Virus record (IMG/VR): IMGVR_UViG_3300045988_050672
Coordinates: 1 to 43,489 of that record
Length of the DNA stretch: 43,489 nt
Reading direction: 5' to 3' (one strand)
Source: a virus
Numbering within the stretch: the first letter of the stretch is position 1; each line of letters starts with the position of its first letter. The notes below the pieces were generated by a model. The model made no database searches, was not told the origin of the DNA, and saw only the letters and a list, made by a program, of their open reading frames with translations. Below are positions 16,674 through 43,162 of this stretch, in pieces. The translations under genes and the position numbers were made by a program.

Positions 16674-16749
16674 TGGAGGGCTGTACAGGCTTCGATCCTG
16701 TGACCTGCGGATTAACAGTCCGTTGCTCTACCAGCTGAGCTAACAACCC
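16674..16749 (-). tRNA. tRNA-Asn (anticodon GUU), 76 nt with encoded CCA
   Basis: GGGTTGT-TA-GCTC-AGCTGGTA-GAGC-A-ACGGA-CTGTTAA-TCCGC-AGGTC-ACAGG-ATCGAAG-CCTGT-ACAGCCC-T-CCA. Full cloverleaf, 7-bp acceptor stem with one G-U pair. Confidence 0.9.
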
Positions 16750-20120: not shown

Positions 20121-21767
20121 TTAGAACGGCCTTTTCATAACTTCAACCTTTGCCAGCCTGAAAGATTCTGAATAGTCAACCAGCATTGCGATACTGTCAA
20201 CCAGGTCGTCGTTTTTGTTCTTTCCAGCCATTGTGTATCCGCAAAGCATACTCATAGCAAGCCGATACTCCTTATCGCCTTTGTATGCGCTTTCGTCCTT
20301 GAAAAGAAAATGCTCTTTGGCATATCCGGCGGCGATAATAATTCGTGTTTCTTTGTTCGTGGTGGAGAACTTTGTCGTGATTTTTGTTCTTCCGCCTTCC
20401 TCTTTCACACGCTTTTGCACATCTGCCGCAATTCTTCCTCCTGCGGAGTTGCTTTCAAAACGTGCAGCTTGAACCCTGTGCTTTAGCAGTTTTGCCACAA
20501 TTCTTGCTTCCACAATTTCCGGGTTAGAATTATCGCATATAAAATCTTCAATATAGTAATCGTCACCATACTGGTACGCGATCGGCATGGCGCAATAATC
20601 CGTTCCTCTGTCCTTTGTATCGCAAGCGGCAATGATTGCGTCTGGCTCTTGGTCTGGAAGGTCAAAATAGCGGCGGAGTTCATTTTCTTGGTAAAGCAAC
20701 CCCATTCTTTCTACAGGCTCATTTTGATACAGCGCTTTCCAACTGACGCTATCCATAATATCCCGCTGTTCCCGGTAGAACTTGGTGGAGAACCCCACGC
20801 CAAACTCATAATCAAAATTGCTTTCGTCGTCCTCGTTCATGGCAGGAATCCGAATGAATTTCGCCCTGGGATTGTTCTCATATTCCCGTTCCAGCCGCCC
20901 AATCACATCGTGAACGCTCCACCGGGTAGCAATATGAAGCTCTTTGCATTTGTCACCGATTTTACGCTGCCGCAGGTCCGTAGTGTAGGTTTCCCACAGC
21001 TTGTCCAGCCGCTCTTTGGATAGCGCGACCTCAATACCAGATACCAGATCGTCGCAGTACAGCAGGTTCGCCGCCCGGTACAGACCGGCATTGCCCGTTC
21101 CAATGGAGGTAAATTCCAGCGTCTCAAATCGCTGCCGCTTATCAAGGTCAATTCGGCAGTCCTTTGCGTTGGTGCTGGACACCTGAACGGCAGGGAAGAC
21201 ATCATGCCATAGATATTCCCCCTTTGAGTCAAACAGCCGCAGACATTCGTCATACACGCCCCGCACAAAGGAATTGGAGTGGCTGCCCGTCAGATTCGGG
21301 TTGTTTGGGTCGCGTCCGGCAATCCAGGTCAGCAGGAAGATTGCAAGCGTGGTCTTTCCTACGCCGGGGGGCAAACTAACCGCCAGCAAATCCAGCTTGT
21401 CATCCCCGCACAGCGCTTGCAGTGCGTCCACCACGGGCTTTAGCTGCTTCTTCCGTGGCTGATAAAACCGCTTTTTCGCCTGCCTATCCAGCTCCATATA
21501 GGTGAGATAGCTGTCAAAGTCATATGGAGCCTCAAACAATAGCCCCCGCCGCCAAAGGCTGTAGAATCCCTCCACCTGAGACATGGGCACTTTATCCATC
21601 ATTCGGTCGCACATATCCTTCAATTTTTTATTCGCCCGATGAGCCGCCGTGAAATCAGTCTCAGCCCATGCCTGACACAGGGAAAACAGGTCTTCATATG
21701 CCCCGATATCACCCGGTCTGTTCTCGATAGCCCCCAGAATGGAGGTTGACAATTTCTCATAATCCAT
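20121..21767 (-). CDS. terL: Terminase large subunit, 548 aa
   Basis: Walker A LPPGVGKTT, and a C-terminal nuclease-type region with conserved acidic residues. Size and context fit. Confidence 0.9.
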   Translation of the reverse strand: MDYEKLSTSILGAIENRPGDIGAYEDLFSLCQAWAETDFTAAHRANKKLKDMCDRMMDKVPMSQVEGFYSLWRRGLLFEAPYDFDSYLTYMELDRQAKKRFYQPRKKQLKPVVDALQALCGDDKLDLLAVSLPPGVGKTTLAIFLLTWIAGRDPNNPNLTGSHSNSFVRGVYDECLRLFDSKGEYLWHDVFPAVQVSSTNAKDCRIDLDKRQRFETLEFTSIGTGNAGLYRAANLLYCDDLVSGIEVALSKERLDKLWETYTTDLRQRKIGDKCKELHIATRWSVHDVIGRLEREYENNPRAKFIRIPAMNEDDESNFDYEFGVGFSTKFYREQRDIMDSVSWKALYQNEPVERMGLLYQENELRRYFDLPDQEPDAIIAACDTKDRGTDYCAMPIAYQYGDDYYIEDFICDNSNPEIVEARIVAKLLKHRVQAARFESNSAGGRIAADVQKRVKEEGGRTKITTKFSTTNKETRIIIAAGYAKEHFLFKDESAYKGDKEYRLAMSMLCGYTMAGKNKNDDLVDSIAMLVDYSESFRLAKVEVMKRPF

Positions 21768-21776
21768 ACTCTCACC

Positions 21777-22109
21777 TCACAGAGCGTCAGCTTGTTCAAA
21801 TGCTTTCAGCAGTTTTGGGAACTGGATTGCGAAGAAATCCACCATTTCCTCGTTTTGTGCCCAGTAAGAGTTTTCAGCAAGGCCGCTTTCAAATAGAAAT
21901 GCGTGAATGATCTCATGCCGCTTCACCTTATTTGTCTGAACCAGAAGGTTTTGCTTGCAATTTGGTTCCCCCTTGCTGTCTTCGTAATTTTCGACCAGCA
22001 TCTCTTTCGTAGTTTCATCACAGAAACCGTCACAATCCTTGAGCCTTGGCTCTTTGCTTCCCCTAATTACCGTAAGCGTATATTCTGCTCCCAAAACGTC
22101 GATTTTCAT
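21777..22109 (-). CDS. Small HExxH protein (putative zinc metallopeptidase fold), 110 aa
   Basis: KRHEIIHAFLFESGL motif. AGGAGGG SD. Lies 10 nt upstream of terL, where terS would normally sit. Confidence 0.5.
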   Translation of the reverse strand: MKIDVLGAEYTLTVIRGSKEPRLKDCDGFCDETTKEMLVENYEDSKGEPNCKQNLLVQTNKVKRHEIIHAFLFESGLAENSYWAQNEEMVDFFAIQFPKLLKAFEQADAL

Positions 22110-22125
22110 AAATTCCCTCCTGATA

Positions 22126-22175
22126 CAAAAATAAGGGCTGCCCGTGCGTATCTCAGCACAAGCAGCCCTTCGGCT
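22126..22175 (-). terminator. Intrinsic terminator preceded by the AGCCGAAGGGCU 12-mer
   Basis: Minus strand AGCCGAAGGGCTGCTTGTGCTGAGATACGCACGGGCAGCCCTTATTTTTG. 12-mer at 22164..22175. Confidence 0.75.
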
Positions 22176-22221
22176 ATGGCTCCCACCTATGGGAACATTT
22201 ATTCACTTATGGGTTGCCCCC

Positions 22222-22287
22222 CTATACATGCTTCATAAGCTCTATCAGCACGAATATGGGGAACAGAATAATTAGCAACACCCACAT
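22222..22287 (-). CDS. Hydrophobic micropeptide A, 21 aa
   Basis: MWVLLIILFPIFVLIELMKHV. GGAGG lies 8 nt upstream and overlaps the stop of the 266-aa gene. Gap-free paralogue of 25771..25839. Confidence 0.55.
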   Translation of the reverse strand: MWVLLIILFPIFVLIELMKHV

Positions 22288-22300
22288 AGGTCAGACCTCC

Positions 22301-23101
22301 TTATTTCAGTTCGCAGTCAGTGAATCCACCTCTTCCAATGCATTTTCCCTCAAATGTAATCGTATCTCCCACTTTGACTGTTTTCAGGGCATCTTCCTGA
22401 TCTTTCTCAAATTCTGCGTAGAAGTAAACGATGGTATTACCGACTCTGGCTTCCATCGTCAGTGTAGCGCCGCCTGTCAGATTCAGAAGCCCGCCGGTGC
22501 TCATTCCGTCGATTGTCGCAGTAATACGGTATCGGTTGTATCGGTATGTATCATTTGCCAAAAGCTCGTTCTCTTTGTATGCATTGTATATATCGTCGTA
22601 AGCAACAGAAGTATCTGCGGGTTCTGTGGTAGGTTCAGTTTTCTTCAATGTCGAACTTCCTGTTTTCTGCTCAGCGGATTTTCTGAGCATTGGAAGTACT
22701 TCTATTTTTTCATATCCGCATCGTGTACACCTCTGGACATATTCGCCGTCCTTATCGTCCGTGGGCTCTACCCGCCGAACATCTTCCATAGAATGCCCGA
22801 GTTTCTTTAAGGTTTCTTTTTTATCGCCACCGCAAAGATTACAATGGTACTCCTCGTACCCGTTTTCGGTGCAGGATGCTTCTTTGCTTTCCACCAGCTT
22901 GTATTCATGTTCGCACCATGTGGAAGGATTTGTTGACACTCCGATTATCAAAAATAAAGCAAAAGAAAGCCAGAACCATTTGACCCATTTCATTTTAGGC
23001 TTCTTTTGTATTTTTCGGATAACCCAGATGATGAGCAAAATAGGAAGTGCAAGTATTTCGATTGCAAAAAGCGTGTACATGGCGGTTGATACAGCCTGCA
23101 T
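22301..23101 (-). CDS. Membrane-anchored exported protein: 2 TM helices, Cys4 zinc-ribbon-like modules, C-terminal OB-fold (tRNA_anti-like family pattern), 266 aa
   Basis: Two N-terminal hydrophobic helices. CEHEY...C..NG...C.LCG and C.RCG motifs. C-terminal AYDDIYNAYKENELLANDTYRYNRYRITATIDG...VGDTITFEGKC resembles the OB-fold DUF seen in Firmicutes surface proteins. Confidence 0.6.
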   Translation of the reverse strand: MQAVSTAMYTLFAIEILALPILLIIWVIRKIQKKPKMKWVKWFWLSFALFLIIGVSTNPSTWCEHEYKLVESKEASCTENGYEEYHCNLCGGDKKETLKKLGHSMEDVRRVEPTDDKDGEYVQRCTRCGYEKIEVLPMLRKSAEQKTGSSTLKKTEPTTEPADTSVAYDDIYNAYKENELLANDTYRYNRYRITATIDGMSTGGLLNLTGGATLTMEARVGNTIVYFYAEFEKDQEDALKTVKVGDTITFEGKCIGRGGFTDCELK

Positions 23102-23124
23102 AATTACTCCCCCTACGTCGTATT

Positions 23125-23367
23125 TCAGCTTTCCTTTTGGTCAATCACGATCTGATCTGCTCTTCTGGCACCGGGCTTGCGCTCCTGAATGACTACCTCA
23201 TAGCCCAGAACGTCCAGCATTTCGACTGCTTTGTCGAAGGTCATGTTGGGGCTTAGAAGCCTTGAGCTTACATCGTTCCCTCTCTGTTTGCCGATGGCTT
23301 TCGCCATAGAGATAAGAGAGATGTTTTTCTCTTTCATAAGGCTGCGAATCGCTTTGTTGATTTGCAT
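23125..23367 (-). CDS. XRE/Cro-type HTH regulator, 80 aa
   Basis: MQINKAIRSLMKEKNISLISMAKAIGKQRGNDVSSRL... ATG at 23367 with GGAGGTG. The longer tracked ORF runs through the promoter. Confidence 0.7.
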   Translation of the reverse strand: MQINKAIRSLMKEKNISLISMAKAIGKQRGNDVSSRLLSPNMTFDKAVEMLDVLGYEVVIQERKPGARRADQIVIDQKES

Positions 23368-23391
23368 TGGTAGCACCTCCTGTGTGCCTTT

Positions 23392-23420
23392 AATATACAC
23401 TAGATATATTTGATTGTCAA
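23392..23420 (-). promoter_or_regulatory. Promoter P1 (TTGACA-17-TATATT) for the HTH operon
   Basis: -35 at 23415..23420 and -10 at 23392..23397 on the minus strand. The sequence CCTATTGACAATCAAATATATCTAGTGTATATT is about 85 percent identical to P2. Confidence 0.65.
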
Positions 23421-23531
23421 TAGGATTGCCAAAATAAAATTGGTGATGTGACGACCGGAGGGAGCTTTTATATAGTTGGTTCTTGCCTTTTTGTTTTTCG
23501 CGCGATTTTTGAAATGTTGATTTTGTGCAGC

Positions 23532-23568
23532 ATAAAAAATAAGAGAACCCCCGCAAAGGATGGCTCTC
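23532..23568 (-). terminator. Minus-strand-specific intrinsic terminator
   Basis: GAGAGCC-ATCCTTTGCGGG-GGTTCTC followed by TTATTTTTTAT. The stem has a G-U pair on the minus strand that becomes an A-C mismatch on the plus strand. Confidence 0.7.
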
Positions 23569-23574
23569 ATTAAG

Positions 23575-23603
23575 TTGACATTATTCGACAATCTGTGTAT
23601 AAT
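23575..23603 (+). promoter_or_regulatory. Promoter P3, perfect TTGACA-17-TATAAT
   Basis: -35 at 23575..23580, -10 at 23598..23603. Fires rightward into an ORF-free structured region. Confidence 0.65.
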
Positions 23604-23609
23604 AAATTC

Positions 23610-24003
23610 CGTGGAACCCACCGTCCGCGTCGAGTTTCCTGGCTTGCCATAGCCTATCTCCTTTGTAGACGGTGTACGGTTAAAAAGACGGTTGCCTGTC
23701 ATCCCGCGAGTGCGGAATGGAGGCGTGTGTATAGCCCTCGCGGGAAATTTATTTCTCATGGAGGTGACCATACATAACTCTTCAAGATGTTTTCTGGATT
23801 GTGTCTATCTGCTGGATTCTCGTCCAAGCGTGGGACAAGTTCCATAACAGAAAGAAGTGAGCCGTCTGTTCACAGCAGAACGGCTCACGGTTGTTTGAGC
23901 GCTAAGCTCTCGACCTACTAACTTGTATGCTCGTGGCAACCGTCTGGGTTCCCACCGCAGGGGACATCTGTTACCAGCAGGTGTTCCCTGTGTTATTATT
24001 ATA
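23610..24003 (+). ncRNA. Candidate ~390-nt structured RNA (plus strand, P3 to terminator)
   Basis: No SD-linked ORF. Long-range helices 23613..23620/23945..23952 (8 bp) and 23686..23696/23935..23945 (11 bp). Local helices 23703..23710/23737..23744 and 23857..23888. Confidence 0.45.
23958..24003 (+). terminator. Plus-strand-specific terminator-like hairpin
   Basis: 13-bp stem CAGGGGACATCTG/CAGGTGTTCCCTG with two G-U pairs that become C-A mismatches on the minus strand. Followed by TGTTATTATTAT. Confidence 0.5.
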
Positions 24004-24026
24004 GACCTTTACAGAAGCGTTGTCAA
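23998..24026 (-). promoter_or_regulatory. Promoter P4, perfect TTGACA-17-TATAAT
   Basis: -35 at 24021..24026 and -10 at 23998..24003 on the minus strand. Faces P3 across about 390 bp. Confidence 0.65.
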
Positions 24027-24076
24027 ATAATTTTTTAATAACTTTTTTAGATTTTTCCCACATTCCCAATCTTTCA

Positions 24077-24107
24077 AGACTTCCGTTTGGAGGTCTTTTT
24101 TCTTTTT
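24077..24107 (+). terminator. Plus-strand intrinsic terminator
   Basis: AGACTTCC-GTTT-GGAGGTCT (one U-G pair) followed by TTTTTTCTTTTT. Confidence 0.7.
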
Positions 24108-24560
24108 CGGGATTTTTCGAGAAGGGAAGGAAGCCTTTTGGGCTGAAATCTATTTGGGGGGCTTACCGCGCGGAAATGCCCGGGCGCATATCCCCCGCCC
24201 CCGGTGCTATCCAGCAGCAGCCGGAACCGCTGGACGGTGCCGGACGGCACAAAATCCATGGAATGCAAGCTGTCCACGCTATGCAAACACATTTTGACCG
24301 TATCGACATGAACGGTAAAGTGAACGCAACAAAATAAATATTTGGTTGCGTTCAAGGCTATAAAAGCATACGCCAAAATGCAATATTTATTGAAAATGTT
24401 CTGATTTCTCCGTGTTTTGCCGTGTTTTCGTGTCCTTGTATCGTGGACCAGGAACATGTACTTATGTTGTAGACATTTCGGCTATTATGTGCGCGTATAA
24501 AACACTGTAAAAATCAAACTTCCCACGCGAAAAGAAACTAAATAAATTTGTATTTCCCTA

Positions 24561-24589
24561 TTGACAACCAAATGTATTTGGTGTATAAT
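24561..24589 (+). promoter_or_regulatory. Promoter P2 (TTGACA-17-TATAAT) with a palindromic spacer operator
   Basis: -35 at 24561..24566, -10 at 24584..24589. The spacer holds the inverted repeat ACCAAAT-GT-ATTTGGT (24567..24582). Near-copy of P1. Confidence 0.7.
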
Positions 24590-24707
24590 GTCCACGTAAA
24601 CAAAAAAGCGCCCCCGAAGCCGTAGCAAGCAAGCCGGGAGCGCACCACACAAGGGGGCACCGCTATTATAGCACGGCCTCCGCAGAATTACAAGGAGGAA
24701 TATTATA

Positions 24708-25343
24708 ATGATTATCAACAGGAAGAACTATCTATTACTAGAAAAGCGCGGCTGCAATTTTAATGGCGGCGTCCCGGTCACCACTAAAAGCGACGTTGGA
24801 AATTATCGTGTATGCACGACGGGCGAGACGATCCCCGGCAAAGACGGCCGGACTTATTTCCTTGAATTCTCCCTTTGGCAGAACCGCAGCCAGCCGCGCT
24901 ATACCAATAAGCGAACCGGCGCACCGCTGAAACACCCCGTGCGAGAGATCATCAACCCCATTGGACTACACATCGACACGCAATACACCGACGAAAGCGG
25001 CCAATCTTGGCGCAATCTCAACTTGGAACAGCGCATCCACAAACAGAACCCCAGTTACACCACATCAGAGATCCTTTCCATTGCAAACGAGATCAGCGCG
25101 GAACACTACGACGGCATTAAATGGGTTTGTTCTTTCCGCGAGACCGTCGAGCATGGCGCGAACTTTACGCCGGCAGCCCTGATTTCCACCTATGCGAAAA
25201 GAAACCGCATGGAAATAGGCTCCCGGTTCGGGACTCTCTGTCTCAGGCTTTACACCGGGACATATAAATATCTGGCCTACGATGTCCGCAGCTTTTGCAG
25301 CCGCGATAATGTAACCGTGATTCTTGAGGAGGTGGAAGCATGA
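24708..25343 (+). CDS. Hypothetical protein, 211 aa
   Basis: ATG with AAGGAGGAA SD. Globular-looking composition. No family recognised with confidence. Confidence 0.65.
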   Translation: MIINRKNYLLLEKRGCNFNGGVPVTTKSDVGNYRVCTTGETIPGKDGRTYFLEFSLWQNRSQPRYTNKRTGAPLKHPVREIINPIGLHIDTQYTDESGQSWRNLNLEQRIHKQNPSYTTSEILSIANEISAEHYDGIKWVCSFRETVEHGANFTPAALISTYAKRNRMEIGSRFGTLCLRLYTGTYKYLAYDVRSFCSRDNVTVILEEVEA

Positions 25344-25606
25344 ACATTAACGCAATCATGGCCGAACTAGCCCAGTATATCCGGATGCAGGAGGAAGCCG
25401 CCGCAATGGTGGAGAGCCTGAAAGACCAGCTGAAAGCCCAGATGCAGGCCGCAGGCGTGGACACGCTGGCCGGGGACGAACACAAGGCCACTTATAAGGC
25501 TGTCACAAGTTGCCGAGTGGACACGACCGCCCTAAAAAAAGACCTGCCGGAAATCGCCGCCCGGTACACAAAAACAGCGGAAACCCGTAGATTTACATTT
25601 GCATAA
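25340..25606 (+). CDS. Hypothetical coiled-coil protein, 88 aa
   Basis: ATGA overlap with the upstream gene. N-terminal amphipathic helix, then HKATYKAVTSCRVDTTALKKDLPEIAARYTKTAETRRFTF. Confidence 0.6.
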   Translation: MNINAIMAELAQYIRMQEEAAAMVESLKDQLKAQMQAAGVDTLAGDEHKATYKAVTSCRVDTTALKKDLPEIAARYTKTAETRRFTFA

Positions 25607-25618
25607 GGAGGTAAAACC

Positions 25619-25774
25619 ATGAAAACATACATTTTTACAGCAAGCAAAACCGGGGAAAACGTGGATTTTGAAGCAACAATTCAGGCAAAAGCGGGGCCCG
25701 ACTTTTGGGACTGCTACGAGTTGGCAGCCTCCCGCGGGTGCGAGTTCTGGACTTGTGAGGAGGTCGGCGCGTGA
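25619..25774 (+). CDS. Small ORF, 51 aa (below the ORF-track cutoff)
   Basis: MKTYIFTASKTGENVDFEATIQAKAGPDFWDCYELAASRGCEFWTCEEVGA. AAGGAGG SD 8 nt upstream. Confidence 0.5.
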   Translation: MKTYIFTASKTGENVDFEATIQAKAGPDFWDCYELAASRGCEFWTCEEVGA

Positions 25775-25839
25775 TTATCCTTGCAATTCTGTTTTTCCCG
25801 CTGCTTGTGCTTGCGGAGCTGCTGAAAATCAGCAAATAA
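25771..25839 (+). CDS. Hydrophobic micropeptide B, 22 aa
   Basis: (GTG)IILAILFFPLLVLAELLKISK. GTGA overlap with the upstream stop and GAGGAGG 7 nt upstream. Paralogue of 22222..22287. Confidence 0.55.
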   Translation: MIILAILFFPLLVLAELLKISK

Positions 25840-25847
25840 TATTTCAA

Positions 25848-25882
25848 GCCGTCCGGGCATTGTCCGGGCGGCTTTCTTTGTT
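25848..25882 (+). terminator. Intrinsic terminator of the plus-strand island operon
   Basis: 11-bp stem GCCGTCCGGGC/GTCCGGGCGGC (two wobble pairs) followed by TTTCTTTGTT. Confidence 0.7.
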
Positions 25883-26321
25883 CTGCGGCGCTGGCATCTA
25901 TTGTCGGCTTTCTCTTTGCCCTGCCAACGTGGCGGGGCTTTTCTCTTGCTATGCCCTGTAAGGCGCTCAGCGGCTTTTTAAGCGGCTTTTATTCCGGCAA
26001 TATAAATTAACGTCAAGCATCGTTCCCGCCTTAAAATGGGCACGCATGGACGCCACGAAATGCCGCACGGCGTTTTATGCAGCGTGTGGGGCGCTCAGCG
26101 CCCGCCATTGTGCCTATTCCTGTGCCGGATATGCCAGGATGCCCCCGCAGCTTTTCGCCCGTCTGGTCGCTTTCTGCGCCCTCCGGCGTTCTGCCCTCTG
26201 CGACGGAACAGGGGCGCCACCCCACGGCCCGCCAGAGGCAGCCCAGATCCCGATCAGATTTCCCGCCATGTTTTTGCGTCATGGCTGAAAATCCCCGCAA
26301 GGCTCCCAGCTCGTGAGCCAT

Positions 26322-26447
26322 AGTCGCAAAGTCGCAGCCGAAAATTCCCGTTTCATAGTCGCAGAAAGTCGCCCCGAAAGTCGCAAGACCTCCGGGGCGT
26401 TTTTATAGTCGCTATAGTCGCTGGGTCAAAGTCGCTGTTATAGTTGC
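26322..26447 (+). repeat. Same-orientation array of nine AGTCGC motifs (mostly ATAGTCGC or AAAGTCGC)
   Basis: Motif starts at 26322, 26330, 26357, 26367, 26379, 26407, 26416, 26430 and 26442 (last one AGTTGC). Further exact copies at 26558, 26683 and 26916, inside the two upstream genes. Confidence 0.9.
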
Positions 26448-26656
26448 TCGAGCTTCCGACCGCACACTGGGCAAAAATTCCAAGTCACCGTCATTTGCCG
26501 CCCGCTATGGGCAACCACGGAGAATGTTTCCGGTTTGTTCACACACTCTCTGCAAAAGTCGCAGGCGGGTTTCCTAGCGCCACCCTCCATCAGCATCCGG
26601 ATTTGGGCAACCTCTGTGCACATTCGTTCGATGGCGTATTCCGTCTTTTCTCTCAT
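26438..26656 (-). CDS. Small zinc-ribbon protein, 72 aa
   Basis: CDFCREC ... CPVCG pairs. ATGA overlap with the terS stop. Confidence 0.6.
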   Translation of the reverse strand: MREKTEYAIERMCTEVAQIRMLMEGGARKPACDFCRECVNKPETFSVVAHSGRQMTVTWNFCPVCGRKLEQL

Positions 26657-27201
26657 TCCGTTCCACCCTCCGCATCAATGATAGTCGCACCGCTACCGCG
26701 AACATCTTCCAGATACTTCTGCCGCAGCTTCTCCGGGTCTGCCCGCTCTCCAAGCGGATTATCCGGCTTTAAGACCACTTCCTGCTGGTCGGTGTAGTTC
26801 ATATTGTTTTTCATCAAAAAAATTCCGGCAACGGGGTTAATCTTGCCATTTTGCATGAAATCCTCCATCTGAGCGTTGATTAAATCCCTCGCTTTTTTGA
26901 TAGTGTCACGCACAGAGTCGCTTAAATCCCTGCTTCTAGGCTGATTATTGCACCATCTCCACATGGTCATTCTGTCCACACCGAAAGCTAAAGCGAATCC
27001 TGCGAAAGTCGGCTTCATATCGTTCTCAGCGCACAGGCTGAAATAGTCGAAGCACCGTTTCTGTACCGCCTCCAAGCTGTCCATGTCCGGCTTGTCCCAC
27101 TTCATGATAGTCATGGAATGGTTAATGTACTTGGTGTTGTCTCCTGGTTCCAGATCAGGAACTTGATAAGGCTTCTTTTTGAGTTTATTGCTTTCCGCCA
27201 A
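26653..27201 (-). CDS. terS: Terminase small subunit, 182 aa
   Basis: KPTFAGFALAFGVDRMTMWRWCN HTH-type segment typical of terS. TTG start with GGAGGA 7 nt upstream. First gene after an AT-rich gap. Confidence 0.7.
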   Translation of the reverse strand: MAESNKLKKKPYQVPDLEPGDNTKYINHSMTIMKWDKPDMDSLEAVQKRCFDYFSLCAENDMKPTFAGFALAFGVDRMTMWRWCNNQPRSRDLSDSVRDTIKKARDLINAQMEDFMQNGKINPVAGIFLMKNNMNYTDQQEVVLKPDNPLGERADPEKLRQKYLEDVRGSGATIIDAEGGTE

Positions 27202-40890: not shown

Positions 40891-41520
40891 ATGGAAAAAC
40901 GGAAAATAATACAACAAATATCGACAATTTGTGATAATCTGCCCACAAAGATGAAATGGGCAAAGGAGGAACAGCACAAAACCAATCAGCAGATTATCGA
41001 CAGCACAGGGCTGAGTGAATCCATGGTTAAAAAGTTCTTCTCCGGCCACCTGGCGGGTCCAAGTATCTATGACGTGACCGCCATTGCCATTGACCTTGGT
41101 CTGTCCCTGGATGAGCTGATGGAGCTGTCCCCGCCGAAGCAAGACCAGAGTGTGGAAATCGAACGGCTGAAAACCGAAATTTCACACAAGGAAGAACTTA
41201 TCTCGGAAAAAGATAACGCCATCTCCCGGTTGGAAGAGCGCAGCCACATGATGGATAAAGAAATATCCGCCGTCCGGTATAACTGGAAGCATGTGACTTA
41301 TGGAGCCGCAGGGCTTGCGGTTCTGTTCGGCATCTTCCTTATGGTATATGTCTTTCTGGATATGCAAAACCCGAATCTTGGCCTGTTCCAGTCCGGCCAC
41401 GCCTCGCCGATCGTTTATGTCGCGGCCTTTTTCATTATCGGAACATGCCTGTATATCGTCCGAACTGTGATAAAGCGAAACGCAAAAAGGAGTAAACACG
41501 ATGCAAACAATACCAATTGA
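40891..41520 (+). CDS. Membrane-anchored XRE-type HTH protein (HTH, coiled coil, 2 TM), 209 aa
   Basis: TNQQIIDSTGLSESMVKKFFSG HTH. Coiled coil EIERLKTEISHKEELISEKDNAISRLEE. Hydrophobic helices GAAGLAVLFGIFLMVYVFL and IVYVAAFFIIGTCLYIV. Confidence 0.65.
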   Translation: MEKRKIIQQISTICDNLPTKMKWAKEEQHKTNQQIIDSTGLSESMVKKFFSGHLAGPSIYDVTAIAIDLGLSLDELMELSPPKQDQSVEIERLKTEISHKEELISEKDNAISRLEERSHMMDKEISAVRYNWKHVTYGAAGLAVLFGIFLMVYVFLDMQNPNLGLFQSGHASPIVYVAAFFIIGTCLYIVRTVIKRNAKRSKHDANNTN

Positions 41521-43162
41521 TCTATCGGCTCTTACGCCGGAGGAAAGACAGCAGTTTGCGGATAATCCCTCCGTTCTTTCATCGGACTGCGAGGCGGTCT
41601 GCTGCCTGTATATGCGCTACAGCTCCGACCGGCAGACAGAGCAGTCCATCGAAGGGCAGCTCCGGGAGCTGATAGCCTATTGCAAGCACCACAGCTATCG
41701 GGTTGCCGCCATTTATGTTGACCGGGCGATTTCCGCCCACGCAAGCATGGACAAGCGGCCAGCGTTCCAGCAGATGCTTGCTGACAGCGCCAGATCGTCA
41801 TGGAAAACCGTTTTGGTTTACAAACTGGACAGATTTGCCCGGAACAGGGAAGACAGCGCCATTGCCCGCATGCGGCTCCGTAAGAACGGCTGCAACGTGG
41901 AATCCGCGAAAGAGGGCATTTCCAAGAACCCCGAGGGTGTGATTCTGGAAGCCCTGCTGGAAGGTATGGCGGAATATTATTCTCTAGAGCTGTCCCAAAA
42001 AATAACCAGGGGAATGCGGGAATCTGCCATTAAGGGAAATTGTTTGGGCGGTCAAATCCCACTGGGATATAAAATTGAAAATAAAAAGTACGTCATTGAC
42101 CCCCTGACAGCCCCATTGGTGAAGGAAGCGTTTTCCCGATACGGTGACGGGGAAACAGCCGCCTCGATCTGCGCAGACTTCAACGCCAGGGGTTACAGGA
42201 CAGCAAGCGGCGCAGAATTCAACAAGAGCAGTTTCAAAAATATTTTCCGGAATGAGAAATATATAGGCGTATATAAGTACAAGGAAATGCGGCGGGAGGG
42301 CATCATCCCGCGAATTATTGCCGACGATGCGTGGATTGCCGTTCAATCCCGCTTGAAGGTTAACGAAGCTGCCCCTGCCCGTGGAAAAGCAAAAGTGGCG
42401 TATCTTCTTGCCGGAAAGATTTTCTGCGGTCACTGCGGCGCTCCAATGACAGGCGAGTGCGGGCGCGGAAAATCCGGGAAAATGTACAATTATTACTCCT
42501 GCGCGACCCGCAAGCATCATAACAGCTGTGAAAAAAAGCCAGTCCCGAAGGACTGGCTGGAAGATGTGGTAGCTCAGGACGCCCTTGACGTACTGACAGA
42601 CGAAATTATCGAATTTGTGGCAGAAGTAGCCGCCCAGCAGTCAGAGGAAGACATTCAGAAGAATACACAGATTCCGGTCATACGAAAAAAGATTTCTGAA
42701 ATTGAAAATAAAATCCGCAATCTGACGAAAGCGCTTGAATGTGCTTCCGTTGCGCCGGACGCTATTGTGGAAAGGCTTGCCGAATTGGAAGCCCAGAAAA
42801 AGGGGCTGTCTACACAACTATCCGATGAAGAACGCGGCGTGATTCCGCTCACAAAGGAGTCTGTCGTGGTTTATCTGAAAGCGGTAAGAGAAAAGGCGGT
42901 TCCGCTGGAAACCCAGAAAGCCATGCTTATTGAAATGCTTGTAAATTCCGTCACCGTTTACGATGATGAGCCGGGATTCCTGAAACTCGTGTACGCCTAC
43001 CGCCTGACGCAAATCCCCACGAGGACATATCGTGTGCCAATTCCCGCAAAAGTACCGTGTTCGGATTTTAGGACGCAACCTGCTCCATTGGACGCAAATC
43101 CGAACACAATTACCGTTGTGGGAATGGTTTTCATCCAAACCAGAAGACACGCCCTGCCTTGA
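41501..43162 (+). CDS. int: Large serine recombinase (integrase), 553 aa
   Basis: Resolvase catalytic region YMRYSSDRQ...VYKLDRFARN. Recombinase domain. Zinc ribbon CGHCGAPM...YYSC. C-terminal coiled coil. Confidence 0.9.
   Translation: MQTIPIDLSALTPEERQQFADNPSVLSSDCEAVCCLYMRYSSDRQTEQSIEGQLRELIAYCKHHSYRVAAIYVDRAISAHASMDKRPAFQQMLADSARSSWKTVLVYKLDRFARNREDSAIARMRLRKNGCNVESAKEGISKNPEGVILEALLEGMAEYYSLELSQKITRGMRESAIKGNCLGGQIPLGYKIENKKYVIDPLTAPLVKEAFSRYGDGETAASICADFNARGYRTASGAEFNKSSFKNIFRNEKYIGVYKYKEMRREGIIPRIIADDAWIAVQSRLKVNEAAPARGKAKVAYLLAGKIFCGHCGAPMTGECGRGKSGKMYNYYSCATRKHHNSCEKKPVPKDWLEDVVAQDALDVLTDEIIEFVAEVAAQQSEEDIQKNTQIPVIRKKISEIENKIRNLTKALECASVAPDAIVERLAELEAQKKGLSTQLSDEERGVIPLTKESVVVYLKAVREKAVPLETQKAMLIEMLVNSVTVYDDEPGFLKLVYAYRLTQIPTRTYRVPIPAKVPCSDFRTQPAPLDANPNTITVVGMVFIQTRRHALP

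What the first reader, a model, noticed from the sequence alone, without database searches (positions are those of the whole stretch)
23532..24026. ORF-free, highly self-complementary ~0.4-kb locus bracketed by face-to-face consensus promoters and strand-specific terminators
Two perfect TTGACA-17-TATAAT promoters point at each other: P3 on the plus strand (23575..23603) and P4 on the minus strand (23998..24026). Each is backed by a terminator for the opposite strand. The minus-strand terminator (23532..23568) has a U7 tract, and its G-U pair is a mismatch on the other strand. The plus-strand hairpin (23958..23990) has two G-U pairs that are C-A mismatches on the other strand. The layout is T(-) P3(+) ... 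T(+) P4(-), and it predicts two RNAs that are almost fully complementary: about 390 nt on the plus strand and about 455 nt on the minus strand. The interior has no SD-linked ORF except a 26-codon one at the 3' end of the minus RNA (23570..23650, AAAGGAG SD). It contains long-range helices of 11 bp (23686..23696 with 23935..23945) and 8 bp (23613..23620 with 23945..23952), plus several 8-13 bp local stems. I cannot match it from memory to tRNA, tmRNA, RNase P, 6S, a retron ncRNA or a group II intron. Size and setting (phage, near tRNA genes) are compatible with large ornate phage-associated RNAs or with a convergent-transcription switch. That last part is inference.
Basis: partly seen in the sequence, partly recalled or inferred. 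Interest (0 to 1): 0.8.

Follow-up and report, generated by a model that had tools for sequence, protein, structure and literature searches.

The report
Phage-borne small toxin gene with antisense RNA
The "ORF-free" structured RNA locus is most likely the heavily folded mRNA of a 28-residue membrane peptide, faced by a promoter for an antisense RNA: an undescribed family of type I toxin-antitoxin-like cassettes from gut phages and bacteria that starts translation at AUA rather than AUG.

Summary
The sequence features are real. There are two perfect face-to-face promoters, strand-specific hairpins and long-range helices, and the plus strand folds far better than shuffled sequence (z = -7.7). 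No Rfam family matches.

The locus is not ORF-free. About 100 homologues from metagenome and viral contigs (99-50% identity) share these features:
- a strong plus-strand promoter;
- a 5'-3' closing helix;
- a nearly invariant leader of about 90 nt;
- an extended Shine-Dalgarno (GGAGGTGA);
- a 27-35-codon ORF (window 23774-23860, ITLQDVFWIVSICWILVQAWDKFHNRKK*), hydrophobic with a Lys/Arg tail;
- a conserved hairpin straddling the stop codon (the TGA lies in its 5' arm);
- a convergent consensus promoter on the minus strand.

The ORF evolves like a protein: third-position bias 21 vs 11/9, and pN/pS 0.2-0.5 in frame against mostly about 0.6-2 off frame. It has no AUG/GUG/UUG. An in-frame AUA/AUU/AUC lies 7-12 nt after the SD in most family members.

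The best reading is a type I toxin-antitoxin-like cassette. The toxin mRNA runs about 23610-24000 (+). The antisense RNA runs from about 23991, either to about 23846 or through to 23533 (-). Toxicity and the transcripts themselves are untested.

The peptide matches no known toxin family. The cassette lies between two T-rich repeats and is absent from sister phages. I rate it a new variant of a known kind, of moderate interest.

The parts
23487..23510 (+). Left copy of a T-rich boundary repeat (CTTTTTGTTTTTCGCGCGATTTTT).
   Evidence: The pattern occurs exactly twice in the window, with 0 expected by chance. In sister phages the two copies are adjacent with no cassette between them.
23533..23568 (-). 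Minus-strand intrinsic terminator: hairpin 23543-23568 plus U tract 23533-23542. It would stop read-through antisense or leftward transcription before the HTH gene promoter.
   Evidence: Fold of -13.3 kcal/mol followed by UUAUUUUUU. An equivalent hairpin plus A/U run is present in the L129 group with a different stem sequence.
23575..23603 (+). Promoter of the toxin mRNA (TTGACA-17-TATAAT). The inferred transcription start is about 23610.
   Evidence: A plus-strand promoter matching at least 11/12 sits at the same place in 9 of the 11 subfamily representatives scored; the exceptions are L122 (9/12) and the decayed copy L139 (8/12).
23611..23625 (+). 5' strands of closing helix P1 (23611-23620, pairs with 23945-23955) and of P1a (23621-23625, pairs with 23668-23672).
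   Evidence: P1 is 88-97% paired across 21 sequences, with 3 pairs changed on both sides and a paired deletion in L122.
23662..23750 (+). Nearly invariant 5' leader. It holds the P2 5' strand (23687-23696) and the P3 hairpin (23702-23745). The 3' half of P3 (GCCCUCG) can pair with the SD instead.
   Evidence: Alignments A1 and A2. It is 86-97% identical even in loci found through a different anchor. P2 and P3 show compensatory pairs. Two mutually exclusive folds lie within 10 kcal/mol of each other in all 13 sequences that could be scored.
23760..23767 (+). Extended Shine-Dalgarno GGAGGTGA.
   Evidence: Conserved as GGAGG(C)TGA in all subfamilies.
23774..23860 (+). Small ORF of 28 codons plus TGA: (M/I)TLQDVFWIVSICWILVQAWDKFHNRKK. 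The inferred start is ATA at 23774.
   Evidence: Variable sites by codon position are 11/9/21. pN/pS is 0.2-0.5 in frame and mostly about 0.6-2 off frame. Length differences between subfamilies keep the frame. Hydrophobic core plus K/R tail in 21 distinct peptides. An in-frame AUH lies 7-12 nt from the SD in 28 of the 32 distinct entries that have an intact family ORF.
23857..23888 (.). Conserved hairpin whose 5' arm contains the stop codon. On the plus strand it is part of the mRNA fold. On the minus strand it is followed by UUCUUUCU (the complement of the Lys/Arg codons) and is the probable terminator of a short antisense RNA.
   Evidence: -21.5 kcal/mol on + and -19.4 on -. It is 98% paired in homologues, with variation only through G-U on the + strand.
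23935..23955 (+). 3' strands of P2 (23935-23944) and P1 (23945-23955), which lock the 5' end of the mRNA to its 3' end.
23956..24002 (+). 3' hairpin of the mRNA (23956-23992) plus the U-rich tail UUAUUAUUAU. Probable plus-strand terminator.
   Evidence: 17 bp, -27.1 kcal/mol on + against -14.0 on -. Eight pairs have compensatory changes in the subfamilies that have it; it is absent from other subfamilies.
23998..24026 (-). Convergent promoter of the antisense (antitoxin-like) RNA (TTGACA-17-TATAAT). The inferred start is about 23991.
   Evidence: A minus-strand promoter matching at least 10/12 lies just 3' of P1 in 10 of the 11 representatives scored (L139: 8/12), and by eye in 4 more.
23846..23991 (-). 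Inferred short antisense RNA of about 140 nt. It is complementary to the 3' UTR and last codons of the mRNA. The read-through form would extend to 23533.
   Evidence: Inferred from the promoter and the hairpin plus U tract. Folds at -55.4 kcal/mol, z = -3.3. No transcript data.
24076..24117 (+). Plus-strand terminator-like hairpin (24076-24097). Its T tract runs into the right copy of the T-rich boundary repeat (24095-24117).

Best explanation
The locus is a self-contained type I toxin-antitoxin-like cassette carried as an accessory insert in a temperate gut phage.

Shown:
- The plus-strand promoter (23575-23603) heads a conserved RNA of about 390 nt.
- The 5' end of that RNA pairs with its 3' end (P1 and P2).
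- The RNA encloses a conserved leader, an extended SD and a 28-codon ORF for a hydrophobic peptide with a Lys/Arg tail.
- A consensus promoter on the opposite strand (24026-23998) is conserved across the family.

Inferred:
1. The peptide is a membrane-active toxin.
2. It is translated weakly from an AUA start (AUU or AUC in relatives), 9 nt after GGAGGTGA.
3. In the ground state the SD and start are paired with the 3' half of the leader hairpin. An alternative long hairpin (CCCGCGAG:CUCGCGGG) would free them.
4. The minus-strand promoter makes an antisense RNA. It either stops at the hairpin that overlaps the ORF's stop codon (about 140 nt) or reads through to 23533.
5. This antisense RNA pairs with the 3' part of the mRNA and mainly causes its destruction as a duplex (RNase III-type), as in bsrG/SR4 and the C. 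difficile prophage systems.
6. For the phage, the cassette would stabilise the prophage or kill cells under stress or superinfection.
For: - Coding. The frame ending at the conserved TGA gives related hydrophobic peptides in all subfamilies. Third-position bias is 21 vs 11/9, and pN/pS is 0.2-0.5 in frame against mostly about 0.6-2 off frame. KD(17) is 1.5-2.7, with 3-6 K/R in the last 8 residues of 21 distinct peptides.
- Start. There is no canonical start in frame. An AUH lies 7-12 nt after GGAGG in 28 of the 32 distinct entries with an intact family ORF (AUH within 3-14 nt in 29 of all 36 entries listed). One member has GTG at +10 at the same site. AUA/AUU starts with extended SDs give about 10% of AUG activity in Firmicutes (bioRxiv 10.1101/2025.06.19.660503).
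- RNA structure. 92.7-94.9% of cells are paired against 32-49% when partners are slid. 11-16 pairs have changes on both sides, against 3-12 in slid controls, and 0/500 shuffles reach this. One-sided changes are G-U on the plus strand.
- SD sequestration. The SD-start window is mostly paired (mean unpaired probability 0.28). The two alternative leader folds are both possible in all 13 sequences that could be scored.
- Convergent promoters are conserved.
- Cassette behaviour. It is present or absent between T-rich repeats in sister phages. It also occurs at prophage ends, in tail modules, next to Phd/Doc, and beside genes that look chromosomal from their N-termini.
- Precedent. Convergent type I modules with a hydrophobic N-terminus and Lys-rich tail stabilise C. 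difficile prophages (PMC6563280; PMC7699646).
Against: - No transcript, translation or toxicity data exist.
- The ORF lacks AUG/GUG/UUG, so translation rests on a near-cognate start. One subgroup (L240/L297) has its in-frame AUA only 2 nt after the SD.
- The peptide matches no known toxin family.
- Masking the region bound by the antisense RNA, or removing the 3' strands of P1/P2, does not change predicted SD accessibility (0.28, 0.30, 0.29). No translational control by the antisense RNA is predicted.
- The G-U variants in the stop-codon hairpin (23857-23888) would be C-A mismatches on the minus strand, which weakens the proposed antisense terminator in some homologues.
- Both collection scans were anchored on conserved motifs, so the invariance of those anchors is by construction.
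Confidence: 0.75

Rival explanations
1. The ORF encodes a small membrane peptide that is not a toxin, for example a lysis-timing or holin-modulating peptide, a superinfection-exclusion peptide, or a regulator of a membrane protein. The antisense RNA simply tunes its level.
For: In the window the cassette lies next to a Sie-like gene. In the L129 group it lies next to genes that look like holin and endolysin genes from their size and N-termini. One peptide has a weak, sub-threshold resemblance to a T7-type holin (E = 0.03). Toxicity is untested.
Against: The cassette also sits beside genes with no phage character, next to a Phd/Doc pair, and inside tail modules. That fits an autonomous selfish module better than a lysis accessory. 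Perfect constitutive promoters on both strands, a deliberately weak start codon and an mRNA locked 5' to 3' are the usual devices for keeping a harmful product off.
Confidence: 0.15
2. One reading: a non-coding structured RNA (large ornate RNA) and/or a convergent-promoter switch of the phage, in which the small ORF is incidental.
For: Very stable fold (z = -7.7). Covariation supports several helices. The leader is more conserved than the ORF. There is no canonical start codon. A 'drum' RNA lies next to the module in one group.
Against: The ORF shows a clear codon signature in frame, much weaker or absent in the other two frames. Length changes between subfamilies keep the frame and the K/R-TGA end. 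An extended SD is conserved at the right distance. No Rfam match. The unit is absent from sister phages and present outside phages, so it is not part of a phage decision circuit.
Confidence: 0.05
3. A remnant or inactive copy: the family is or was a type I module, but the copies without a canonical start are decaying pseudogenes.
For: There is no AUG/GUG/UUG in most members. L139 has frame-disrupting indels and lacks the promoter.
Against: Purifying selection on the ORF is seen among members that all lack a canonical start. The in-frame AUH at a fixed distance from a conserved extended SD recurs in at least 10 divergent subfamilies. Promoters stay at consensus.
Confidence: 0.05

Closest known systems
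Bacillus subtilis prophage type I systems bsrG/SR4, txpA/RatA, yonT/SR6
   Same: Convergent toxin mRNA and antisense RNA that overlap at the 3' end. Small hydrophobic toxin. Prophage location. The SD is partly sequestered in the mRNA. (PMC3834814; PMC5848175 abstract.)
   Different: No sequence similarity. Here the start codon is AUA/AUU/AUC. The mRNA is closed by a 5'-3' helix of about 20 bp. The 5' leader is nearly invariant. No effect of antisense binding on SD pairing is predicted, whereas SR4 extends the helix that sequesters the SD.
Clostridioides difficile prophage/CRISPR-adjacent type I systems (CD0956.2-RCd10, CD0977.1-RCd11 and others)
   Same: Convergent overlapping genes. Toxins of 30-56 aa with a hydrophobic N-terminus and Lys-rich tail. 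Strong SD 7-8 nt before the start. Located in prophages of gut Clostridia, with a shown role in prophage maintenance. (PMC6563280; PMC7699646.)
   Different: Those toxins start at ATG. tblastn of the window peptide against GenBank phages finds nothing at E <= 10; I assume, but did not check, that this collection includes C. difficile phages. The leader and the 5'-3' lock are not described for them.
hok/sok (E. coli plasmid R1) and aapA1/IsoA1 (Helicobacter pylori)
   Same: The full-length toxin mRNA is held translationally inert by its fold, with alternative or metastable structures hiding the SD. The AapA1 toxin is 30 aa, and its C-terminal Lys-Arg is needed for toxicity. (PMC5416894; PMC6733600 and PMC10537873. 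The 5'-3' pairing of hok and aapA1 mRNAs is from my own knowledge.)
   Different: In those systems the antisense RNA covers the 5' translation-initiation region, and 3' trimming activates the mRNA. Here the antisense promoter sits at the 3' end. No homology.
Large ornate phage-associated RNAs (ROOL, GOLLD)
   Same: Strongly structured RNA in prophages of Firmicutes, with its own promoter.
   Different: No match to any Rfam model. About 390 nt, against roughly 500-800 nt for ROOL and GOLLD (sizes from my own knowledge). It contains a conserved, selected ORF with an SD.

Membership tests
Type I toxin-antitoxin system (generic class) | Small (<60 aa) hydrophobic protein encoded by the 'toxin' mRNA | tested here: met
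   27-35-aa peptides with a hydrophobic core and K/R tail, and a coding signature in frame.
Type I toxin-antitoxin system (generic class) | Antisense RNA gene with its own promoter, complementary to the toxin mRNA | tested here: inconclusive
   A consensus promoter on the opposite strand is conserved across subfamilies. A candidate terminator is present. The transcript itself cannot be observed with these tools.
Type I toxin-antitoxin system (generic class) | The peptide is toxic when expressed, and the toxicity is neutralised by the RNA | not testable with these tools
   Needs expression experiments.
Type I toxin-antitoxin system (generic class) | The toxin mRNA fold limits translation (SD sequestered) | tested here: met
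   The SD-start window has mean unpaired probability 0.28 in 19 homologues. Anti-SD pairing is possible in all 13 sequences that could be scored. The helices are supported by covariation.
Known toxin protein families held in Pfam and NCBIfam (the type I toxin models I expect there include Fst/Ldr, Hok/Gef and TxpA/BsrG) | Sequence match to the family profile | tested here: not met
   No hit to any toxin family at E <= 10 for 7 representative peptides.
C. difficile prophage type I toxins (CD0956.2-like) | Homology to CD0956.2-like peptides; ATG start 7-8 nt after AGGAGG | tested here: not met
   tblastn against 50,697 GenBank phage records gives no match at E <= 10; I did not confirm that C. 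difficile phages are among them. The start codon here is AUH, not ATG. No direct alignment with the C. difficile sequences was made.
Rfam antitoxin or toxin-mRNA RNA families I would expect in the library (RatA, Sok, Sib, par/Fst and others) | Covariance-model match | tested here: not met
   Nothing at gathering threshold in the window or in 6 homologous loci. Only noise at E <= 10.
   No Rfam match. A conserved coding frame is present.

The most novel reading that the evidence does not exclude
This is a type I toxin family whose firing is gated by translation-initiation fidelity rather than mainly by its antisense RNA. Nearly every member pairs a near-cognate AUA/AUU/AUC start with an extended SD and an almost invariant bistable leader. 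Toxin synthesis would then rise when discrimination against non-AUG starts (IF3) drops, or when the leader is flipped by an unknown factor. That could happen during phage takeover, cold or nutrient shifts, or ribosome-targeting stress. The cassette would act as a translation-state sensor for abortive infection or prophage retention.
Probability: 0.15. Interest if true: 0.7.

Novelty: new variant of a known kind. Interest (0 to 1): 0.5.

Why it matters
Type I toxin-antitoxin modules are badly under-annotated because the genes are tiny. This family is invisible to gene callers: there was 1 hit among 5.8 billion predicted proteins. It is also absent from Rfam, Pfam, NCBIfam, GenBank phages and PLSDB plasmids. 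Yet two motif scans returned about 210 matching stretches of human-gut and other metagenome and viral contigs. About 80 of these were distinct full-length or partial homologues, excluding chance matches and re-found contigs.

The family offers a natural, repeated case of a toxin translated from AUA/AUU/AUC. It also offers a leader whose near-invariance can be explained by two mutually exclusive folds. That makes it a compact system for studying how mRNA folding, weak start codons and antisense RNA combine to keep a lethal gene silent.

For annotation, it shows that a 'beautifully structured, ORF-free' RNA in a phage can be a toxin mRNA.

Tried and rejected
- Rfam at gathering and at E <= 10 gave only a distant tRNA and noise.
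- blastn and tblastn against GenBank phages and PLSDB plasmids found no match for the window RNA, a divergent homologue, or the peptide.
- The first viral-contig searches returned only copies at 99% identity or more, which are useless for covariation.
- The single genome-contig scan (18-mer ATGGAGGTGACCATACAT) returned 7 chance hits with no homology. The host species therefore remains unknown.
- A search of the protein database with the 60-aa ORF that overlaps the leader gave 1 weak hit. The 30-aa peptide was too short for that tool.
- The minus-strand 26-codon ORF was rejected because of a nonsense variant and lack of conservation.
- Translation of the conserved leader as protein was rejected. 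It is open in different frames in different members and shows no synonymous variation.
- I tested whether the start region pairs specifically with the 3' UTR (CAUACA:UGUAUG). Cognate and non-cognate duplex energies do not differ (-10.4 vs -10.1 kcal/mol, permutation p = 0.34). This helix is not claimed.
- I tested whether antisense binding or 3' truncation exposes the SD. No change was predicted.
- A literature search for the sequence strings found only unrelated primer matches.
Full report
**1. The observation**

- Region 23532-24026 holds two perfect sigma-70-type promoters that face each other: + at 23575-23603 and - at 24026-23998.
- A 17-bp hairpin lies at 23956-23992. It is much stronger on the plus strand (-27.1 kcal/mol) than on the minus strand (-14.0).
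- A minus-strand hairpin plus U tract lies at 23533-23568.
- The plus strand from 23610 to 23995 folds at -163.6 kcal/mol, z = -7.7 against dinucleotide shuffles. The minus strand gives z = -5.8.
- Rfam finds nothing here at the curated thresholds or at E <= 10.
What needed testing was the claim that the locus is ORF-free, and the interpretation.

**2. Setting**

- The window is a temperate siphovirus-like genome. It has a serine integrase (41501-43162), recombination and replication genes, a TerS-like gene (26653-27201, -), TerL (20121-21767, -), an SPP1-type portal and structural genes.
- The finding lies in a 4.9-kb segment between the TerS-like gene and TerL. Its left neighbour is an 81-aa HTH gene (23125-23370, -) with its own promoter. 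To the right is a rightward promoter at 24561-24589.
- The closest cultured relative by TerL is a [Clostridium] innocuum phage at 45% identity. The other matches are human faecal phage contigs.

**3. A cassette that comes and goes**

- In IMG/VR, 21-25 contigs carry the locus at 99-100% identity, although the neighbouring HTH protein is only 80-100% identical.
- Sister phages with the same flanks (L014, L018, L023, L024) lack it.
- The inserted block is about 23476/23511 to 24094/24139. It sits between two copies of a T-rich motif that occurs only twice in the window (23487-23510 and 24095-24117; 0 expected by chance).
- In other phages the same motif separates an empty site, this cassette, and a second cassette with an HNH-like endonuclease ORF.

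**4. Divergent homologues change the picture**

- A metagenome scan with an 18-mer from the RNA returned 112 loci. A viral-contig scan with the stop-codon hairpin as anchor returned 98 more stretches, of which 77 were new loci; the rest re-found contigs already fetched.
- After chance matches are set aside, the homologues run from 99% down to about 50% identity over the alignment.
- All subfamilies share these features:
  - a consensus plus-strand promoter;
  - 5'-GUGGAAnCCCACC pairing with GGGUUUCCAC-3';
  - a nearly invariant leader of about 90 nt (window 23662-23750);
  - GGAGG(C)UGA;
  - a highly variable stretch of about 85-105 nt;
  - the conserved sequence AAGUGAGCCGUCUG...CAGA.CGGCUCAC;
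  - the P2 and P1 3' strands;
  - a consensus promoter on the opposite strand, immediately or 35 nt downstream.

**5. The variable stretch is a gene**

- Read in the frame that ends at the TGA inside AAGTGAGCC, every subfamily gives a 27-35-residue peptide with a hydrophobic core and a Lys/Arg tail. In the window it is ITLQDVFWIVSICWILVQAWDKFHNRKK.
- Among six ungapped members, variable sites fall 11/9/21 by codon position. pN/pS is 0.2-0.5 in frame; in the two other frames it is mostly about 0.6-2, with a few low values between the closest pairs.
- Length differences between subfamilies preserve the frame.
- The leader, in contrast, is open in different frames in different members and shows no synonymous variation, so it is RNA and not protein.

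**6. Start codon**

- In the window the frame opens just after the TGA inside the SD (GGAGGTGA), so translation cannot start upstream. In the largest group (L129) the frame contains no ATG, GTG or TTG at all.
- One search lists 36 distinct entries. Four of them lack an intact family ORF and are taken to be chance matches or remnants.
- Of the remaining 32, 28 have an in-frame ATA, ATT or ATC 7-12 nt after GGAGG (9 nt in the window, ATA at 23774).
- One member has GTG at +10 at the equivalent place.
- One subgroup (L240/L297) has its ATA too close to the SD.
- AUA and AUU starts combined with extended SDs are used in Firmicutes and give roughly 10% of AUG activity (10.1101/2025.06.19.660503).
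- I therefore infer a deliberately weak near-cognate start. This is inference, not observation.

**7. RNA structure**

- On two alignments of 21 sequences each, the proposed helices are 92.7-94.9% paired, against 32-49% when the 3' partners are slid by 1-3 columns.
- 11-16 pairs show changes on both sides, against 3-12 in slid controls. No shuffle of 500 reaches the observed values.
- P1 (the 5'-3' lock), P2 (U-A to C-G in L237 and L294), P3 (G-C to A-U in L237; C-G to U-A in L224 and L229) and the 3' hairpin all show compensatory changes.
- The stop-codon hairpin (23857-23888) varies only through G-U pairs on the plus strand.
- Single substitutions among the near-identical copies are also G-U-compatible on the plus strand only (read).
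- The leader can fold in two exclusive ways. In one, a long hairpin (CCCGCGAG:CUCGCGGG) leaves the SD free. In the other, a short 5' hairpin forms and GCCCUCG pairs with the SD.
- Both folds are possible in all 13 sequences that could be scored, within 0-10 kcal/mol of each other. The SD-sequestered fold is equal or better in 10 of them.
- Overlapping constraints from two folds would explain the near-invariance of the leader (inference).

**8. The antisense side**

- The minus-strand promoter is conserved.
- Starting at about 23991, the transcript is complementary to the mRNA 3' UTR.
- The conserved hairpin 23857-23888 is followed on the minus strand by UUCUUUCU, the complement of the Lys/Arg codons (-19.4 kcal/mol). 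This would give an RNA of about 140 nt, the usual size of type I antitoxins. Read-through would end at 23533.
- Masking the region bound by the antisense RNA does not change predicted SD accessibility. I therefore favour duplex-triggered degradation over translational control.

**9. What it is**

- The anatomy is that of a type I toxin-antitoxin module: a small hydrophobic peptide with a K/R tail, an mRNA that hides its own SD and is locked 5' to 3', and a convergent cis-antisense promoter. It behaves as an autonomous cassette.
- It is found at prophage ends, in tail modules, beside Phd/Doc, and next to genes that I provisionally read from their N-termini as chromosomal ones (pyruvate:ferredoxin oxidoreductase, ribosomal protein S6, lysyl-tRNA synthetase, GreA). 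These neighbours were not run against any family library.
- It works like bsrG/SR4 and the C. difficile prophage systems in its 3' overlap, and like hok and aapA1 in its mRNA fold.
- It is not a member of any known toxin or antitoxin family by sequence, and gene callers do not see it.
- Toxicity, translation and both transcripts remain untested. Confidence in the type I-like reading is 0.75.

**10. Caveats**

- Both collection scans used conserved motifs as anchors. The two anchors validate each other: loci found by one carry the other. Even so, true family diversity is probably under-sampled.
- The host taxon is unknown, because the only genome scan gave chance hits.

**11. Verdict**

The locus is a new, unannotated family of a known kind of system, with two unusual traits: a near-universal AUH start and a nearly invariant, possibly bistable leader. 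Interest is 0.5.

Noticed in passing
window 23487-23510 and 24095-24117 (+); L014, L016, L011, L021, L023: A T-rich motif, CTTTTT(1-3)TTTT(3-8)GATTTTT, marks the borders of interchangeable cassettes between the HTH gene and the rightward promoter. The states seen are an empty site, the toxin cassette, and/or a cassette with a 309-aa HNH-like endonuclease ORF. It looks like a small cassette array or recombination hot spot. The mechanism is unknown.
   Followed up: partly
window 24140-24560: A conserved non-coding stretch is shared with sister phages that lack the cassette. It has a G+C-rich part (about 24160-24260) and a hairpin GAACGCAAC...GTTGCGTTC (about 24322-24355). The long ORFs across it (24020-24337 +, 24074-24457 -) have no family matches.
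   Followed up: no
window 21777-26650: A segment of about 4.9 kb with genes on both strands separates the TerS-like gene (26653-27201) from TerL (20121-21767). It carries a peptidase-like gene, a Sie-like gene, an HTH gene, the cassette, a 211-aa unknown, and a Gp157-like gene. This is an unusual place for an accessory island.
   Followed up: partly
L129 1050-1160 (-): A 'drum' RNA (Rfam RF02958, 90 bits) lies directly upstream of the antisense promoter of the homologous module in the L129 group. It is on the same strand as the antisense RNA. There is none in the window.
   Followed up: no
window 24590-24707 (+): The long 5' UTR between the perfect promoter at 24561-24589 and the 211-aa gene (24708-25343) is conserved in L014 and L023 (AAAAAAGCGCCCCCGCAATCC...GGGAGCGCACC...). 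It may be a regulatory leader.
   Followed up: no
window 16674-16749 (-): A tRNA-Asn (GTT) gene is embedded in the structural gene block, between the portal region and the head genes.
   Followed up: no
L081, L093, L096, L098: In four contigs the same cassette (at least 98% identical) sits next to a serine recombinase gene instead of the HTH gene, preceded by two tandem copies of the T-rich motif. The cassette has therefore moved between phage backbones.
   Followed up: partly
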